From assembly GCA_030694425.1 (NCBI GenBank), contig JAUXYI010000011.1, forward strand, positions 14,301 to 78,300: 64,000 nucleotides of DNA, given 5' to 3'. The notes below the pieces were generated by a model, which saw nothing but the letters and a program-made list of their open reading frames with translations, was not told where the DNA came from and did not search any database. Both the position numbers and the translations under genes were made by a program. This document shows, piece after piece, positions 43,445 to 48,478 of this stretch. Position 1 is the first letter of the stretch. Each line of letters begins with the position of its first letter. Source of the DNA: Thermodesulfovibrionia bacterium. GTDB taxonomy: Bacteria > Nitrospirota > Thermodesulfovibrionia > UBA6902 > BMS3Bbin08.

Positions 43445-44746
43445 CTATCTTCTCTTTAGAGCATTTTCAACTGTTTTAATGGCGCAGAATTCTCCGCACA
43501 TACTGCAAACCTCTGATTCTGTTGGCGGAACTTCTGAACGCCACCTTTTAACCCTTTCAGGGTCAAGACTAAGCGCTATCTGGCCATTCCAGTCAAGCGC
43601 CTTTCTCTTTTTTGCCATCTCTATATCAATATCAATAGCGCCTTTAATGCCCTTTGCAATATCTGCGGCATGTGCAGCTATTTTTGATGCAATAACACCC
43701 TCTTTTACATCCTCAAGATTTGGCAGCCTTATATGTTCAGACGGCGTCACATAGCAGAGGAAGTCAGCGCCTGCGGCGCCTGCAATAGCGCCGCCGATAG
43801 CAGCAGCAATATGGTCGTAGCCCATTGCAATATCTGTCACAAGAGGACCAAGCACATAGAAAGGAGCGCCCTTGCATATCTCTTTCTGCATTTTTATATT
43901 AAGCTCAACCTGATTAAGAGGCACATGACCGGGGCCCTCAATAATAACCTGCACGCCTGCTTTAACTGCCCTATCCCTTAACTTCCCAAGGGTCAAAAGC
44001 TCATCTATCTGTGTTCTGTCAGTGGCATCAGCAAGACATCCAGGCCGTGCGCCATCACCAAGGCTCAATGTAAGGTCATACTTCCTCGCTATTTCAAGAA
44101 GCCTGTCATAATATTCATAAAGAGGGTTCTCCCTATCATTGTATATCATCCACTCAACAAGAAAAGCGCCTCCGCGGCTTACAATATCAAGGATCCTGCC
44201 GTCTTCCCTGAGAGTCTCGATTGTCTTTCTTGTGAGCCCGCAGTGCACTGTAACAAAATCAACGCCATCTTCTGCATGTTCCTCAATAGTTGAAAAGAGT
44301 TCATCAATACTCATCTTTGCTATAGAGCCTTTATTTTCAGCAGCCCTCACCACTGCTTCGTATATCGGGACGGTCCCAACCGCAATAGTTGATTTTTTAA
44401 GGAGCAGTTTTCTTATATCCTTAATAGGACCTCCTGTTGAAAGGTCCATGACCGCATCAGCGCCGTATTTAATAAGCACATCAAGTTTTTGCATCTCTTC
44501 ATCAAGCGACACTCTGTCCTTTGATGTGCCTATATTTGCATTTATCTTTGTTCTCAAACCTCTTCCTATGCCTAATGGCCTTATATCATGTTTTATATTC
44601 CTCGTAATAACTGTCAGTCCCTGAGCAATATCCATGGAAAGCTGCTCGGGTTCAATGCCTTCCATGAGAGCTGCTTGTTTTACTTCATCAGTAATTAAAC
44701 CTTTTCTGGCAAATTCAATCCGTGTTTGCTGTAAATTTTTGTTCAT
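43445..44746 (-). CDS. thiC: Phosphomethylpyrimidine synthase
   Basis: 433 aa; C-terminal CSMCGEFCA motif. Confidence 0.95.
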   Translation of the reverse strand: MNKNLQQTRIEFARKGLITDEVKQAALMEGIEPEQLSMDIAQGLTVITRNIKHDIRPLGIGRGLRTKINANIGTSKDRVSLDEEMQKLDVLIKYGADAVMDLSTGGPIKDIRKLLLKKSTIAVGTVPIYEAVVRAAENKGSIAKMSIDELFSTIEEHAEDGVDFVTVHCGLTRKTIETLREDGRILDIVSRGGAFLVEWMIYNDRENPLYEYYDRLLEIARKYDLTLSLGDGARPGCLADATDRTQIDELLTLGKLRDRAVKAGVQVIIEGPGHVPLNQVELNIKMQKEICKGAPFYVLGPLVTDIAMGYDHIAAAIGGAIAGAAGADFLCYVTPSEHIRLPNLEDVKEGVIASKIAAHAADIAKGIKGAIDIDIEMAKKRKALDWNGQIALSLDPERVKRWRSEVPPTESEVCSMCGEFCAIKTVENALKRR

Positions 44747-44768: not shown

Positions 44769-44838
44769 TGTCATTCTGAGCGAAGCGAAGAATCTTAGCT
44801 TTCTTGGAATTGAGACCCTTCACTTTGTTCAGGGTGAC
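44769..44838. mobile_element. MITE-like element fused to the 3' end of thiE
   Basis: gtcattctgagcgaagcgaagaatct...agacccttcactttgttcagggtgac; supplies the thiE tail ...HPEQSEGSQFQES*. Confidence 0.7.
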
Positions 44839-45472
44839 ATAAGCTAATTACCTCCTTAGCTTTCTTCTGCACATCCTCTGCTCCAAAAATTTCTGATATC
44901 ATGGCAACTCCATAAGCCTCTGTTTTTTTCAAGTCTTTTATTCTGCTGCTTTTTACCCCGCCGATTGCAAAGACTGGAATTTTTATCTTTTTACTGATTT
45001 CTCTCAGAGTATCTATTCCCAACGGAGAACCATATTTTAATTTTGATGGTGTTCTATAAATTGGTCCAAGTGTTATAAAATCAGCCCCTGCTCTTTCAGC
45101 CTCTTTTGCTTCTTTTAAAGAGTGTGTTGAAACACCAATTAAAAGTTTTTTCTTCACAATTTTTCTCACAGCATCAGCCGGGATGCTGTTTTGCGTAAGA
45201 TGAACGCCATCTGCTTCAACAGCCAACGCAATATCAAACCTGTCATTGATAAAAAGCTTTGCATTATATTTTTTTGTTAAATCTCTCATCTTGTATGCTA
45301 ACCTTACCAGCTCACGCATGCTTAAATCTTTTTCCCTGAGCTGTATTGCCTTAACTCCGCCTTTCAGTGCCTCCCTAACAGCAGTGACGAGTGACGAGCC
45401 TGCCTGCTCGGTAGGCAGGTGACGAGTGACGAGTTTTCTGTCTGTAATCAGATAAAGTTTAAAATCAATCAT
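44795..45472 (-). CDS. thiE: Thiamine-phosphate synthase
   Basis: 225 aa; TMP-TENI fold; contains the heptamer/hairpin insertion 45384-45434. Confidence 0.85.
   Translation of the reverse strand: MIDFKLYLITDRKLVTRHLPTEQAGSSLVTAVREALKGGVKAIQLREKDLSMRELVRLAYKMRDLTKKYNAKLFINDRFDIALAVEADGVHLTQNSIPADAVRKIVKKKLLIGVSTHSLKEAKEAERAGADFITLGPIYRTPSKLKYGSPLGIDTLREISKKIKIPVFAIGGVKSSRIKDLKKTEAYGVAMISEIFGAEDVQKKAKEVISLCHPEQSEGSQFQES
45384..45434. repeat. Heptamer repeats (GTGACGA) flanking a 21-nt palindrome, in frame in thiE
   Basis: gtgacgagtgacgag-cctgcctgctcggtaggcagg-tgacgagtgacgag. Confidence 0.8.
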
Positions 45473-45554: not shown

Positions 45555-46325
45555 TTACAGCATTCCCTCTATCGGACTGCTTGCAGTTGCATAAAGTTTT
45601 CTCTGGATTCTTCCTGCCTTGTAAGCCAGACGTCCTGCAATAACAGCATGTTTCATCGCCTCAGCCATAACAATAGGGTCTTTGGCTCCTGCTATCGCTG
45701 TATTCAGCAATACAGCATCACATCCGAGTTCCATAGCAACTACCACATCAGAAGCCGTGCCAACGCCGGCATCTACTATAACAGGCACCTTTGCCTGCTC
45801 AAGTATTATCTTTATGTTATAAGGATTTCGTATGCCCAATCCCGAGCCAATAGGTGCAGCAAGGGGCATTACTGCAGCAGCGCCTGCATCAACAAGTCGT
45901 TTAGCCATAACCGGGTCATCATTTGTATAAGGAAGGACTATAAAGCCCTCTTCTGCAAGTATCTCAGTGGCTTTCAAAAGGCCGCATGTGTCAGGGAAAA
46001 GGGTTTTTTCATCACCGATAACTTCAAGTTTTATTAAATCGGAAATCCCTGCCTCTCTTGCAAGCCTTGCATACCTTAAAGCATCTTCAACTGTATAGCA
46101 GCCTGCTGTATTGGGAAGAATCTTGTATTTTTTGGGGTCAATGTAGTCAAACAGGTTTTCTGATTTCCTGTCAAATATATTCACCCTTCTTACTGCAACT
46201 GTGACAACATCGGCGCCTGATGCCTCAATCGCCCGTTTTGTCTCCTCAAAATCTTTGTATTTACCTGTCCCGACCCAGAGACGCGATTTAAATTCAATAC
46301 CTCTAATAACTAATTTATCATCCAT
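45555..46325 (-). CDS. thiG: Thiazole synthase
   Basis: 256 aa; canonical ThiG. Confidence 0.9.
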
Positions 46326-46549: not shown

Positions 46550-46750
46550 TTACCCTCCCCCAACAAAATTAACGATTTCTATTGAATCGCCATCTTTAAG
46601 TATCTGTTCCTGATAATCCTGCTTTTTTATAATCTTCAGATTAACCTCAACAGCAACCTTTGCAGGCTCAATCTCCAGATTTTTAAGAAGCCCTGCAACA
46701 GTAATACCATCCTGAAATTCCAAATCTGTGCCATTTAATTTAAGTCTCAT
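46550..46750 (-). CDS. thiS: Sulfur carrier protein ThiS
   Basis: 66 aa ending GG. Confidence 0.8.
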   Translation of the reverse strand: MRLKLNGTDLEFQDGITVAGLLKNLEIEPAKVAVEVNLKIIKKQDYQEQILKDGDSIEIVNFVGGG

Positions 46751-46919: not shown

Positions 46920-48242
46920 TTATACATGCACATCCCTTTTCCCTTTTTCTATAAGGTCAAGTTTCTCTGAAATCCCGTTCCTGCTTTTTGCACTTTCCTC
47001 TTTCAGTCTTTTTATTAATTGCTCCTTTACATCTCTTGATGCATAGTCCTCTATATATTCTTTAAGGCTCAAGAGGGCATTTTCCTGACAGAAATTTTTT
47101 ATTGCCTGTTTTTGTGCAAGATGTTTAAATTTTTCGCCGCTCCTGTTTTCCCTGTAACATGCTGTGCAAAGGCTTGGAATGAGCCCCAGTTCTGCAATCT
47201 TTTCCATGATTTCCTCGAGACTTCTTTTATCCCCTATTTCAAATTGTGCTGTATCGCTATCCTCAATATAGCCCCACGGGCTCGTCTTTGAACCTGCTGA
47301 TACCTGAGACGCACCCATCAAAAATAATTTATCCCGAAATTCGGATGATTCCCTTGTGGTAACCACAATTCCAACATAAGGAAGAGCCAGCCTGTATATT
47401 GCAACTATTTTTTTGAAATCGCTGTCTGAAACTTTATATCTTGCTTCGTTCAATTTACTCCCCTCTGCCGGCTGAAGCCTTGGAACAGAAAGTGTATGAG
47501 GACCAAATCCATACTTTTTTATGAGCCTATGACAGTGTGCCATCAATGCCCACACATCCCAGCGCCAGTCATATAAACCCAGAAGCACGCCCATCCCGAT
47601 ATCGTCAAAACCTGCTTCTATCGCCCTGTCCATAACACCAAGCCTCCATTCATAATCAGCCTTTGGACCAGAGGGGTGCATAAGTTTATATGTCGGGAAG
47701 TGATATGTCTCCTGAAAACATTGATAAACCCCTGCGCCTGATGTCTTAAGTCTCTTAAAGTCCTCTACTCTCATAGGCGCAGTATTTATATGCAAAATTC
47801 TTATATCCGTGTTCTTATAAATTCCATCAATTATCTTTTCAAGGTAATCTACGCCTACAAGTTTTGAATGATCACTCGTTACGAGCAGCAGTCTTTTATA
47901 TCCTTTGCCTGCAAGCAGCGAAGCCTCTTGTATTGCTTCACCTATACTAAGACTTTTTCTCCTCGCATTTTTATTGCCTTTTCTAAAGCCGCAATATAAA
48001 CAGTCATTCACGCACTCATTTGAAAGGTAAAGAGGTGCGAACAGGACAATCCTCCTGCCATAAACTTTTTCTTTAATCTTACGGGCTGTTTCAAAAACAT
48101 CTTCCCATAATTCTTTGTCCTTCAATGCAATTATATGAGAAATTTCCTTAAGGCTTAATATCTGCAGGTCCAGGGACTTGGCAAGAATATCTTTGATAAG
48201 GGTTCTGTAGGTTTTTACTGAACTATCTTTTGAAGCACGCAT
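46920..48242 (-). CDS. thiH: Radical SAM tyrosine lyase, ThiH/HydG family, with HydG-type C-terminal CX2CX22C motif
   Basis: CVNDCLYCGF radical SAM motif; C-terminal CTACYRENRSGEKFKHLAQKQAIKNFC; ORF-track N-terminus (to 48335) overlaps the riboswitch, so the real start is ATG 48242 (MRASKDSSVK) after the leader terminator. Confidence 0.8.
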   Translation of the reverse strand: MRASKDSSVKTYRTLIKDILAKSLDLQILSLKEISHIIALKDKELWEDVFETARKIKEKVYGRRIVLFAPLYLSNECVNDCLYCGFRKGNKNARRKSLSIGEAIQEASLLAGKGYKRLLLVTSDHSKLVGVDYLEKIIDGIYKNTDIRILHINTAPMRVEDFKRLKTSGAGVYQCFQETYHFPTYKLMHPSGPKADYEWRLGVMDRAIEAGFDDIGMGVLLGLYDWRWDVWALMAHCHRLIKKYGFGPHTLSVPRLQPAEGSKLNEARYKVSDSDFKKIVAIYRLALPYVGIVVTTRESSEFRDKLFLMGASQVSAGSKTSPWGYIEDSDTAQFEIGDKRSLEEIMEKIAELGLIPSLCTACYRENRSGEKFKHLAQKQAIKNFCQENALLSLKEYIEDYASRDVKEQLIKRLKEESAKSRNGISEKLDLIEKGKRDVHV

Positions 48243-48243
48243 T

Positions 48244-48292
48244 AAAATAAAAAACCGTATCCCTGTCGGTGACTCGTAGAGAAGAGATACGG
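48244..48292 (-). terminator. Intrinsic terminator forming the expression platform of the TPP riboswitch
   Basis: Minus strand CCGUAUC...GAUACGG followed by UUUUUUAUUUU immediately before the thiH start. Confidence 0.65.
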
Positions 48293-48303
48293 CAGCCTCC
48301 TTT

Positions 48304-48478
48304 TCCTCCGCCGGCATTATCCGGGTCAGGTTCAAGGGGTCTCCTATCTTCAGAACTAAGATTTCAGAACACAGATATCAGACTTTTTTGTTCTGTTTTC
48401 TGCGCTCTGGGTTCTGTGCTCTGATATTAGGACTCTCAGGCTTTGTCCCGTAATTACTTACGTGACGTTGCCTCCCCC
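48304..48478 (-). ncRNA. TPP riboswitch (thi-box) aptamer, interrupted by an inserted palindromic element of about 90 nt
   Basis: Minus strand shows GGGGGAGGC...GCCUGAGAG...(insert)...ACCCCUUGAACCUGACCCGGAUAAUGCCGGCGGAGG, matching the conserved CUGAGA, ACCC and GAACCUGAUCxGGxUAAUxCCxGCGxAGG elements. Confidence 0.7.
48355..48440. repeat. CAGAACACAGA-type palindromic element (copy inside the riboswitch)
   Basis: cagaacacagatatcagac...ggttctgtgctctgatattagg; related copy at 51297-51372. Confidence 0.7.

What the first reader, a model, noticed from the sequence alone, without database searches (positions are those of the whole stretch)
46920..48242. thi-operon radical SAM enzyme carries the HydG-type C-terminal CX2CX22C motif
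The gene sits where thiH belongs: behind a TPP riboswitch and ahead of thiS-thiG-thiE-thiC. It is about 441 aa and ends with CTACYRENRSGEKFKHLAQKQAIKNFC, an exact CX2CX22C spacing. That motif is characteristic of the auxiliary Fe-S cluster domain of the [FeFe]-hydrogenase maturase HydG, which ThiH (about 375 aa) is reported to lack.

This could be a HydG-like tyrosine lyase recruited to thiamine biosynthesis, a bifunctional enzyme, or a HydG whose operon context is thiamine-regulated.
Basis: partly seen in the sequence, partly recalled or inferred. Interest (0 to 1): 0.55.

Follow-up and report, generated by a model that had tools for sequence, protein, structure and literature searches.

The report
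HydG-type tyrosine lyase serving thiamine synthesis
The first gene of this thiamine operon has the full architecture of the hydrogenase-maturation enzyme HydG, including its extra iron-sulfur domain, yet it belongs to a distinct lineage that sits in thiamine operons of bacteria without [FeFe] hydrogenases, so it most likely supplies the thiazole precursor and is misnamed HydG in databases.

Summary
The 440-aa gene (46920-48242, minus strand) has an exact CX2CX22C (C359/C362/C385). It lies behind a TPP riboswitch and ahead of thiS-thiG-thiE-thiC.

By sequence and predicted fold it is HydG-type, not ThiH-type. It scores 427 bits on TIGR03955 (cut-off 312) and 307 on the ThiH model (cut-off 380). 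TM-score to HydG structure 4WCX is 0.94 over the full length, and the dangler-iron histidine is present.

The genome (96% complete) has no HydE, HydF, [FeFe]-hydrogenase catalytic domain, ThiH or ThiO. This gene is therefore the only visible dehydroglycine source for ThiG.

All 19 thi-linked relatives lie outside a well-supported clade of hydrogenase-linked HydGs (100/97). They come from five Nitrospirota families, Moorella and two other lineages. All 10 loci tested have a TPP riboswitch. Eleven of 28 genomes in the Moorella class carry this type alongside a canonical HydG.

Four residues invariant in 82/82 other HydGs (R, N, T, M) read I149, H151, V172 and non-Met in 19/19 thi-linked proteins. 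The cluster domain itself stays conserved.

Best reading: a ThiH-function tyrosine lyase that keeps a working auxiliary-cluster domain of unknown role. I found no paper describing it. Earlier reports of this scan reached the same reading on other genomes.

The parts
48293..48478 (-). TPP riboswitch aptamer with a roughly 90-nt insertion in the P3 region
   Evidence: Partial Rfam RF00059 hit of 32.4 bits (GA 54.3) at 48286-48367. GGGGAGGC, GCCUGAGAG and ACCCCUUGAACCUGACCCGGAUAAUGCCGGCGGAGGAA are read. The leader aligns to orthologous leaders that score 62-70 bits.
48249..48292 (-). Intrinsic terminator (expression platform): CCGTATC ... GATACGG followed by TTTTTT, ending 6 nt before the ATG
   Evidence: Read. 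The stem arms and T-run are invariant in the five aligned leaders.
46920..48242 (-). HydG-type radical SAM tyrosine lyase, 440 aa, in the thiH position
   Evidence: TIGR03955 427 bits (cut-off 312) and TIGR02351 307 bits (cut-off 380). Radical_SAM and BATS domains. 4WCX E 1.9e-117. AF2 pLDDT 93 and TM 0.94 to 4wcx_A.
47991..48014 (-). Radical SAM cluster motif CX3CX2C (C77, C81, C84; CVNDCLYC)
   Evidence: Translation. These columns are invariant in alignments A1 and A3.
47784..47798 (-). Beta-strand I149-L-H151-I-N153, where hydrogenase-linked HydGs have an invariant R-x-N-x-N and ThiH has E at the last position
   Evidence: I/H in 19/19 thi-linked against R/N in 82/82 others. The AF2 model has a strand at 149-153. 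N153 aligns to TcThiH E158 (PMC9046217).
47496..47498 (-). His249, the counterpart of the dangler-iron ligand His265 of T. italicus HydG
   Evidence: Alignment to 4wcx_A. The chain index runs 14 ahead of the published numbering, checked on F81, E133 and F192 named in PMC9046217. H249 is invariant in A1 and A3. ThiH has V/I/L there.
47088..47168 (-). Auxiliary-cluster motif CX2CX22C (C359, C362, C385)
   Evidence: Conserved in all 19 thi-linked proteins. Every other HydG-invariant residue of positions 356-399 is kept except M373.
46550..46750 (-). thiS, sulfur carrier protein
   Evidence: TIGR01683 77.6 bits (cut-off 37).
45555..46325 (-). thiG, thiazole synthase
   Evidence: Pfam PF05690 379.8 bits.
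44795..45472 (-). thiE, thiamine phosphate synthase
   Evidence: TIGR00693 203 bits (cut-off 145).
43445..44746 (-). thiC, phosphomethylpyrimidine synthase
   Evidence: NF009895 635 bits (cut-off 410).

Best explanation
The gene encodes a radical SAM L-tyrosine lyase of the HydG structural type that does the job of ThiH. When thiamine pyrophosphate is scarce, the riboswitch lets transcription run through the terminator into X-thiS-thiG-thiE-thiC. The enzyme cleaves tyrosine into p-cresol and dehydroglycine (2-iminoacetate). Dehydroglycine is passed to ThiG, which joins it with ThiS thiocarboxylate and deoxyxylulose phosphate to form the thiazole.

The C-terminal domain still binds an auxiliary Fe-S cluster, since the three Cys, the dangler-iron His and all but one of the other invariant residues around the cluster motif (positions 356-399) are kept. 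However, residues that are invariant in hydrogenase-linked HydGs are changed: R to I149, N to H151 and T to V172 on strands that probably line the barrel, and Met to K373 next to the cluster. I infer that these changes keep dehydroglycine from being broken down to CO and cyanide. The auxiliary domain would then have another role (structural cap or gate of the exit channel, electron relay, or ThiG docking).

What is shown: the sequence features, the fold, the operon and riboswitch context, the absence of the hydrogenase system, and the phylogenetic separation. What is inferred: the chemistry, the hand-over to ThiG and the role of the changed residues.
For: - **HydG-type sequence and fold:**
- **Tyrosine-binding residues conserved:** the counterparts of TcThiH T299, R300, R306, S318 and S321 are T296, R297, R303, S315 and S318 (PMC9046217).
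- **Own genome (96.4% complete):** no HydE, HydF, PF02906, second ThiH/HydG or ThiO. A tblastn cross-check finds only ferredoxin-like N-terminal matches to HydA.
- **Nitrospirota sample of 151 genomes:** 31 have a TIGR03955 hit over the cut-off, only 6 have HydF and 6 have the hydrogenase domain, and none of these is in the families that carry the thi-linked type. No genome has a ThiH over its cut-off.
- **Conserved context:** X-thiS-thiG-thiE-thiC or thiF-X(-thiS) in 22 fetched loci, of which 19 non-redundant, intact ones went into the tree and residue counts. A TPP riboswitch over the gathering score is present in 10 of 10 loci tested.
- **Tree:** hydrogenase-linked HydGs form one clade (UFBoot 100, SH-aLRT 97) that excludes every thi-linked protein.
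- **Coexistence with canonical HydG:** Moorella mulderi has a canonical hydE-hydG (630 bits) and a thiS-thiG-X copy (434 bits). 11 of 28 genomes of that class hold both types.
- **Residue signature:** I/H/V/non-Met in 19/19 against R/N/T/M in 82/82.
- **Purifying selection on the cluster domain:** mean pairwise identity 58.5% against 62.1% in the core.
Against: - No biochemical data exist for any member of this lineage.
- The protein passes NCBI's HydG equivalog model and keeps every known ligand of the auxiliary 5-Fe site. Nothing in the sequence proves that CO/CN chemistry is lost.
- The ThiH-specific Glu (TcThiH E158) is Asn here, as in HydG.
- In HydG the C-terminal domain caps the end of the barrel through which ThiH is thought to release dehydroglycine (PMC9046217). 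How the product would reach ThiG is therefore unexplained.
- I placed the four diagnostic residues in the channel or near the cluster from strand topology and alignment only, not from coordinates.
- The genome is a 101-contig draft, so absences are not absolute.
Confidence: 0.75

Rival explanations
1. It is a genuine HydG. It makes CO and cyanide (free, or as an iron synthon) for some metalloenzyme other than an [FeFe] hydrogenase, and its place in the thiamine operon reflects co-regulation rather than a role in thiazole synthesis.
For: It passes TIGR03955. The Cys triad, His249 and nearly all invariant residues of the cluster domain are kept. In another Nitrospirota family, HydG-family genes without HydF or HydA sit beside [NiFe] hydrogenase genes, so HydG chemistry outside [FeFe] systems is plausible.
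Against: ThiG would then have no dehydroglycine source. Linkage to thiS/thiG/thiF and a TPP riboswitch holds across phyla. HydE is absent here. Canonical HydG coexists with this type in 11 genomes. The four residues invariant in 82 HydGs are all replaced.
Confidence: 0.08
2. It is bifunctional, or uses its second site in thiazole synthesis. The enzyme delivers dehydroglycine to ThiG, and the auxiliary cluster also does chemistry, for example on a fraction of the dehydroglycine or as an iron/sulfur or redox partner of the ThiS-ThiG step.
For: The cluster-binding segment is as conserved as the catalytic core within the thi-linked lineage. The dangler-iron His is invariant. A purely structural cap would not obviously require that.
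Against: No known step of bacterial thiazole synthesis needs a second Fe-S site, since ordinary ThiH lacks one (PMC9046217). The channel residues differ from HydG. There is no direct evidence.
Confidence: 0.15
3. The C-terminal domain is an evolutionary relic that no longer binds a cluster, and the protein is simply a long ThiH.
For: [quoted passage not shown]
Against: All three Cys, His249 and 14 other HydG-invariant residues of positions 356-437 are conserved in 18-19 of 19 sequences that are down to 45% identical overall. The AF2 model folds the domain with pLDDT around 90 or above.
Confidence: 0.02

Closest known systems
[quoted passage not shown]
   Same: Full-length architecture: N-terminal helical domain, radical SAM TIM barrel with CX3CX2C, BATS region, and a C-terminal domain with CX2CX22C. 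It shares the dangler-iron His, Asn at the TcThiH E158 position, and a predicted fold with TM 0.94 and rmsd 1.7 A over 440 columns.
   Different: It is not linked to hydE, hydF or hydA, which are absent from the genome. It is the first gene of a TPP-riboswitch thi operon. It lies outside the hydrogenase-linked clade. I149/H151/V172/K373 replace the invariant R/N/T/M. About 25 N-terminal residues are missing. It scores 427 bits, whereas the canonical Moorella HydG scores 630.
ThiH, 2-iminoacetate synthase (TIGR02351; T. carboxydivorans 7PD1; E. coli ThiH)
   Same: It has the same position and partners in the operon (thiS, thiG), thiamine regulation, the tyrosine-binding residues and the expected product, dehydroglycine.
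   Different: It falls below the ThiH model cut-off (307 against 380). It carries about 85 extra C-terminal residues with an Fe-S motif that ThiH lacks. It has Asn instead of the ThiH Glu158. TM is only 0.73 over 359 columns.
C-terminally truncated HydG made in the laboratory (HydG delta-CTD; reviewed in PMC10114646)
   Same: It shows that a HydG scaffold can act as a ThiH-like producer of p-cresol and 2-iminoacetate, which is the activity proposed here.
   Different: That activity was obtained by deleting the domain. The natural thi-linked proteins keep it intact and conserved.

Membership tests
HydG (TIGR03955 equivalog) | Score above the curated whole-protein cut-off | tested here: met
   427.3 bits against a cut-off of 312.15, covering model positions 28-468 of 470.
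HydG | C-terminal CX2CX22C ligands of the auxiliary [4Fe-4S] cluster | tested here: met
   C359, C362 and C385, aligned to the 4WCX motif.
HydG | Histidine ligand of the dangler iron (TiHydG His265) | tested here: met
   H249 aligns to index 279 of 4wcx_A, which is His265 after the 14-residue offset. It is invariant in A1 and A3.
HydG | Co-occurrence with HydE, HydF and an [FeFe] hydrogenase | tested here: not met
   None is over the cut-off in the 96.4%-complete genome. None is found in the Nitrospirota families that carry the thi-linked type.
HydG | Placement inside the clade of hydrogenase-linked HydGs | tested here: not met
   That clade (29 rows) has support 100/97 and excludes all thi-linked rows. 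The quick trees agree.
HydG | Residues invariant in hydrogenase-linked HydGs (R, N, T at window positions 149, 151, 172; Met at 373) | tested here: not met
   The window has I, H, V and K. The count is 82/82 against 19/19. This criterion is derived here, not taken from the literature.
HydG | Production of CO and cyanide, or the Fe(CO)2(CN)Cys synthon, from tyrosine | not testable with these tools
   This needs enzyme assays.
ThiH (TIGR02351 equivalog) | Score above the curated cut-off | tested here: not met
   306.6 bits against a cut-off of 380.
ThiH | Gene neighbourhood with thiS and thiG under thiamine control | tested here: met
.
ThiH | Tyrosine-binding residues (TcThiH T299, R300, R306, S318, S321) | tested here: met
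   T296, R297, R303, S315 and S318 align to them and are invariant or nearly so.
ThiH | Glu that binds the tyrosine carboxylate (TcThiH E158) | tested here: not met
   N153, as in HydG. It is E in 12/12 ThiH outgroup sequences.
ThiH | Short C-terminus with no second Fe-S site (about 365-380 aa) | tested here: not met
   The protein is 440 aa with a HydG-type domain. The 7PD1 alignment ends at residue 350.
ThiH | Delivers dehydroglycine to ThiG; complex with ThiG | not testable with these tools
   This needs biochemistry or genetics. The one complex prediction gave no verdict (see Tried and rejected).

The most novel reading that the evidence does not exclude
The auxiliary-cluster domain, with its dangler-iron site, arose in thiamine biosynthesis rather than in hydrogenase maturation. 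Thi-linked, domain-bearing tyrosine lyases would then be the stock from which HydG later branched, and in them the second Fe-S site has a so-far unknown function in thiazole formation. The R/N/T/M to I/H/V/x differences would mark the switch between releasing dehydroglycine intact and fragmenting it to CO and cyanide.
Probability: 0.3. Interest if true: 0.75.

Novelty: new variant of a known kind. Interest (0 to 1): 0.6.

Why it matters
The C-terminal Fe-S domain is taken as the feature that separates HydG from ThiH. Here a sizeable natural lineage keeps that domain, including the dangler-iron ligand, while sitting in riboswitch-controlled thiamine operons of organisms that have no [FeFe] hydrogenase.

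- **Annotation.** NCBI's equivalog model names these proteins HydG. This can wrongly suggest [FeFe]-hydrogenase maturation in Nitrospirota and other MAGs. Bit score alone does not separate the two types, but the four-residue signature does.
- **Mechanism.** How HydG fragments 2-iminoacetate is still described as a gray area (PMC10114646). Natural variants that differ at four otherwise invariant positions give a direct set of swap experiments.
- **Evolution.** The tree puts these proteins beside or below all hydrogenase-linked HydGs. This bears on how H-cluster biosynthesis was assembled from vitamin-synthesis enzymes.
- **Experimental access.** Cultured Moorella species carry both paralogues, so the question can be tested at the bench.

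Tried and rejected
- **Complex prediction with ThiG** (alignments A3 + A2): no verdict, so it is not used either way.
- **Careful mixture-model tree** (LG+C20 PMSF): it did not finish in two 300-s runs on one CPU. I used its quick version and a finished careful LG+G4 tree.
- **Monophyly of the thi-linked set:** recovered with SH-aLRT 94 in the 119-row quick tree, but not in the careful tree. The AU test does not reject it (p 0.34), so sister clade against grade stays open.
- **Literature searches:** 'HydG-like'; HydG + thiazole + Nitrospir*; HydG + paralog + thiamin; CX2CX22C; HydG + ThiH + phylogen* + evol*. None turned up a description of a thi-linked, domain-bearing lineage. The library holds only open-access papers, so this is not proof of absence. 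The Dinis 2015 HydG structure paper was not held.
- **Glu/Asp at TcThiH position 128** (TiHydG E133), described as compensating in HydG: I considered it as a discriminator and dropped it, because most HydGs in my alignment have V/L there.
- **Separation by TIGR03955 bit score alone:** rejected. Thi-linked proteins score 399-472 bits, while divergent genuine HydGs next to hydF/hydA in the window's own class score 465-473.
- **Fam2-type ThiF:** not found in the window's genome, only MoeB-like weak hits. Not pursued.

Full report
**The feature.** On the minus strand, an ORF ends at 46920. The mechanical ORF list starts it at a TTG (48335, 471 aa). That TTG lies in the CUUGAACCUGA core of a TPP aptamer, so the real start is the ATG at 48242 (440 aa).

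The translation contains the radical SAM motif CVNDCLYC (C77/C81/C84). Near the C-terminus it reads CTACYRENRSGEKFKHLAQKQAIKNFC, an exact CX2CX22C (C359/C362/C385). Downstream on the same strand lie four thiamine genes:
- thiS (TIGR01683, 78 bits)
- thiG (Pfam ThiG, 380 bits)
- thiE (TIGR00693, 203 bits)
- thiC (NF009895, 635 bits)

**The leader.** Rfam at gathering score finds no riboswitch in the window. A local search gives a 32.4-bit partial TPP hit.

Reading the sequence shows GGGGAGGC, GCCUGAGAG and ACCCCUUGAACCUGACCCGGAUAAUGCCGGCGGAGGAA. A long insertion separates them. They are followed by a hairpin (CCGTATC/GATACGG) and a T-run that ends 6 nt before the ATG.

The leaders of orthologous operons score 62-70 bits on RF00059. 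They align to the window's leader at both ends and at the terminator, and the window carries about 90 extra bases.

**What the protein is by sequence and fold.**
- NCBIfam: HydG equivalog TIGR03955 427 bits (cut-off 312, nearly full model). ThiH TIGR02351 307 bits (cut-off 380).
- Solved structures: T. italicus HydG 4WCX E 1.9e-117 over residues 17-439. C. hydrogenoformans HydG 4RTB 5e-109. ThiH 7PD1 2.5e-54, and only to residue 350.
- An AlphaFold2 model (pLDDT 93.1) superposes on 4wcx_A with TM 0.94 and rmsd 1.7 A over 440 columns. On ThiH it gives TM 0.73 over 359 columns.
- The chain index of 4wcx_A runs 14 ahead of the published numbering. I checked this on F81, E133 and F192, which are named in PMC9046217. 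On that basis the dangler-iron ligand His265 corresponds to H249 here.
- N153 corresponds to the Asn that replaces ThiH's Glu158 in HydG.
- The tyrosine-binding residues shared by ThiH and HydG are all present (T296, R297, R303, S315, S318).

**What the genome says.** The window's genome is 2.42 Mb in 101 contigs and 96.4% complete. This gene is its only ThiH/HydG-family member. No HydE or HydF reaches its cut-off. There is no [FeFe]-hydrogenase catalytic domain. tblastn with a real HydA finds only the ferredoxin-like N-terminal part. There is no ThiO. ThiG therefore has no other visible source of dehydroglycine.

**Relatives.** Close homologues (68-96% identity) are abundant in Nitrospirota metagenomes. 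They are named 'HydG' by NCBI or '2-iminoacetate synthase' by JGI.

I sampled 151 Nitrospirota genomes:
- 31 have a TIGR03955 hit over the cut-off.
- Only 6 have HydF and 6 have the hydrogenase domain, and those lie in two genera.
- None has a ThiH over its cut-off.

Fetching the neighbourhoods splits the 31 into three kinds:
- Genuine hydG-hydF-hydE beside hydA (5 genomes).
- A HypC-HydE-HydG arrangement beside [NiFe] hydrogenase genes (one family; see 'noticed in passing').
- Thi-linked genes: X-thiS-thiG-thiE-thiC in the window's family and three others, and thiF-X(-thiS) in a fifth.

A scan of one genome per species across prokaryotes added further thi-linked cases: Moorella mulderi (thiS-thiG-X), a 'Deltaproteobacteria' MAG and an unclassified MAG. 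Most of the other 80 loci are linked to hydE, hydF or hydA. Ten of ten thi-linked loci tested have a TPP riboswitch above the gathering score.

**Phylogeny.**
- A 119-row quick tree places all 19 thi-linked proteins and three cluster representatives in one group (SH-aLRT 94). That group is sister to 79 other HydGs. Together they have support 97, with ThiH as outgroup.
- A 63-row careful LG+G4 tree gives the hydrogenase-linked clade 100/97 and the whole domain-bearing family 88/94. It resolves the thi-linked proteins as a grade below the hydrogenase-linked clade.
- Forcing the thi-linked set to be one clade costs 8.7 log-likelihood units (AU p 0.34), so monophyly is not rejected.
- The quick mixture-model tree agrees on the hydrogenase-linked clade (96) and leaves the rest unresolved.

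Either way, the thi-linked proteins are not a recent offshoot from within canonical HydGs.

**Coexistence.** Moorella mulderi has two family members. One is a canonical HydG next to hydE (630 bits on TIGR03955). The other is the thiS-thiG-linked copy (434 bits). An unclassified MAG has two hyd-linked copies plus a thi-linked one.

In the Moorella class, a profile of the thi-linked proteins gives a bimodal result. Eleven of 28 genomes have a 670-715-bit copy, and each of those also has a 518-567-bit copy. Most of the rest have only the lower-scoring kind. Two paralogues kept side by side argue for two functions.

**Residue signature.** I compared 19 thi-linked proteins with 82 others: 45 with hydF or hydA nearby, 16 with hydE only, and 21 with no informative flank. 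Four positions are invariant in the 82 and different in all 19:

| Window position | 82 other HydGs | 19 thi-linked |
|---|---|---|
| 149 | R | I |
| 151 | N | H |
| 172 | T | V |
| 373 | M | R/L/K/H/T |

Positions 149, 151 and 153 alternate on one predicted beta-strand, and 153 is the residue that faces the tyrosine carboxylate. I therefore infer that 149 and 151 face the barrel lumen further toward its N-terminal end. That is the channel that leads to the auxiliary cluster, where 2-iminoacetate fragmentation is thought to occur (PMC10114646). This placement is an inference from topology, not from coordinates.

By contrast, the cluster-binding segment 356-399 is as conserved within the thi-linked set as the core (58.5% mean pairwise identity against 62.1%). 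Every other HydG-invariant residue of that segment is retained.

**Reading.** The simplest account of all this is a ThiH-function tyrosine lyase built on the HydG plan. It has an auxiliary cluster that is still needed for something, and channel residues altered so that dehydroglycine survives. I give this 0.75. A role of the second site in thiazole chemistry (0.15), genuine HydG chemistry for another target (0.08) and a dead relic domain (0.02) are the rivals.

**Novelty.** Five full-text searches found no description of a thi-linked, domain-bearing lineage. The paper behind the HydG model treats ThiH only as a confounding homologue (PMC3226654).

Earlier reports of this scan on other genomes (e1-891258, e1-1537475) reached the same reading. 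I arrived at it independently before seeing them. I could not see whether the earlier reports already contain any of these.

Noticed in passing
L064:7618-10338 (+) and flanks L064:5057-7078; also L065:6282-9050 (-): In another Nitrospirota family, one 906-922-aa ORF fuses HypC (46 bits), HydE (348 bits) and HydG (607 bits). It lies directly after a [NiFe] group-3-like hydrogenase large subunit and a maturation protease. These genomes have no HydF or [FeFe]-hydrogenase domain. In sister genomes HydE and HydG are separate neighbours. This suggests HydE/HydG chemistry serving a [NiFe] enzyme. Earlier scan reports e1-993580 and e1-787214 describe the same arrangement.
   Followed up: partly
L153:6833-7897 (-), L154:8001-9056 (-), L155:866-2938 (-): A third Nitrospirota family has a short thi-linked ThiH-like protein (about 390 aa, below both model cut-offs). 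Its different Cys-rich tail reads CRRCDEEEAG..YECQCAP...GEC. In one genome (G006) the ThiH-like and ThiG reading frames run on without a stop, which looks like a ThiH-ThiG fusion.
   Followed up: partly
L068:8920-10425 (+): This is the genuine HydG of a genome in the window's own class, next to hydF, hydE and two hydA genes. It reads CTAGYRCGRTG: the second Cys of the CX2C is Gly, and a Cys appears three residues later. Three cluster representatives share the C-G-C pattern.
   Followed up: no
window 48242 and 48335: The ATG start at 48242 follows the terminator T-run directly and has no recognisable Shine-Dalgarno sequence. An ortholog (L073) has GGAG before its start. Database homologues of 465-471 aa probably carry the same over-called start inside the riboswitch.
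   Followed up: partly
Cluster representatives P0122-P0271: Several divergent HydG-like representatives keep the Cys triad but have Arg instead of the dangler-iron His, with varied residues at the R/N/T positions. These look like further uncharacterised subfamilies.
   Followed up: no
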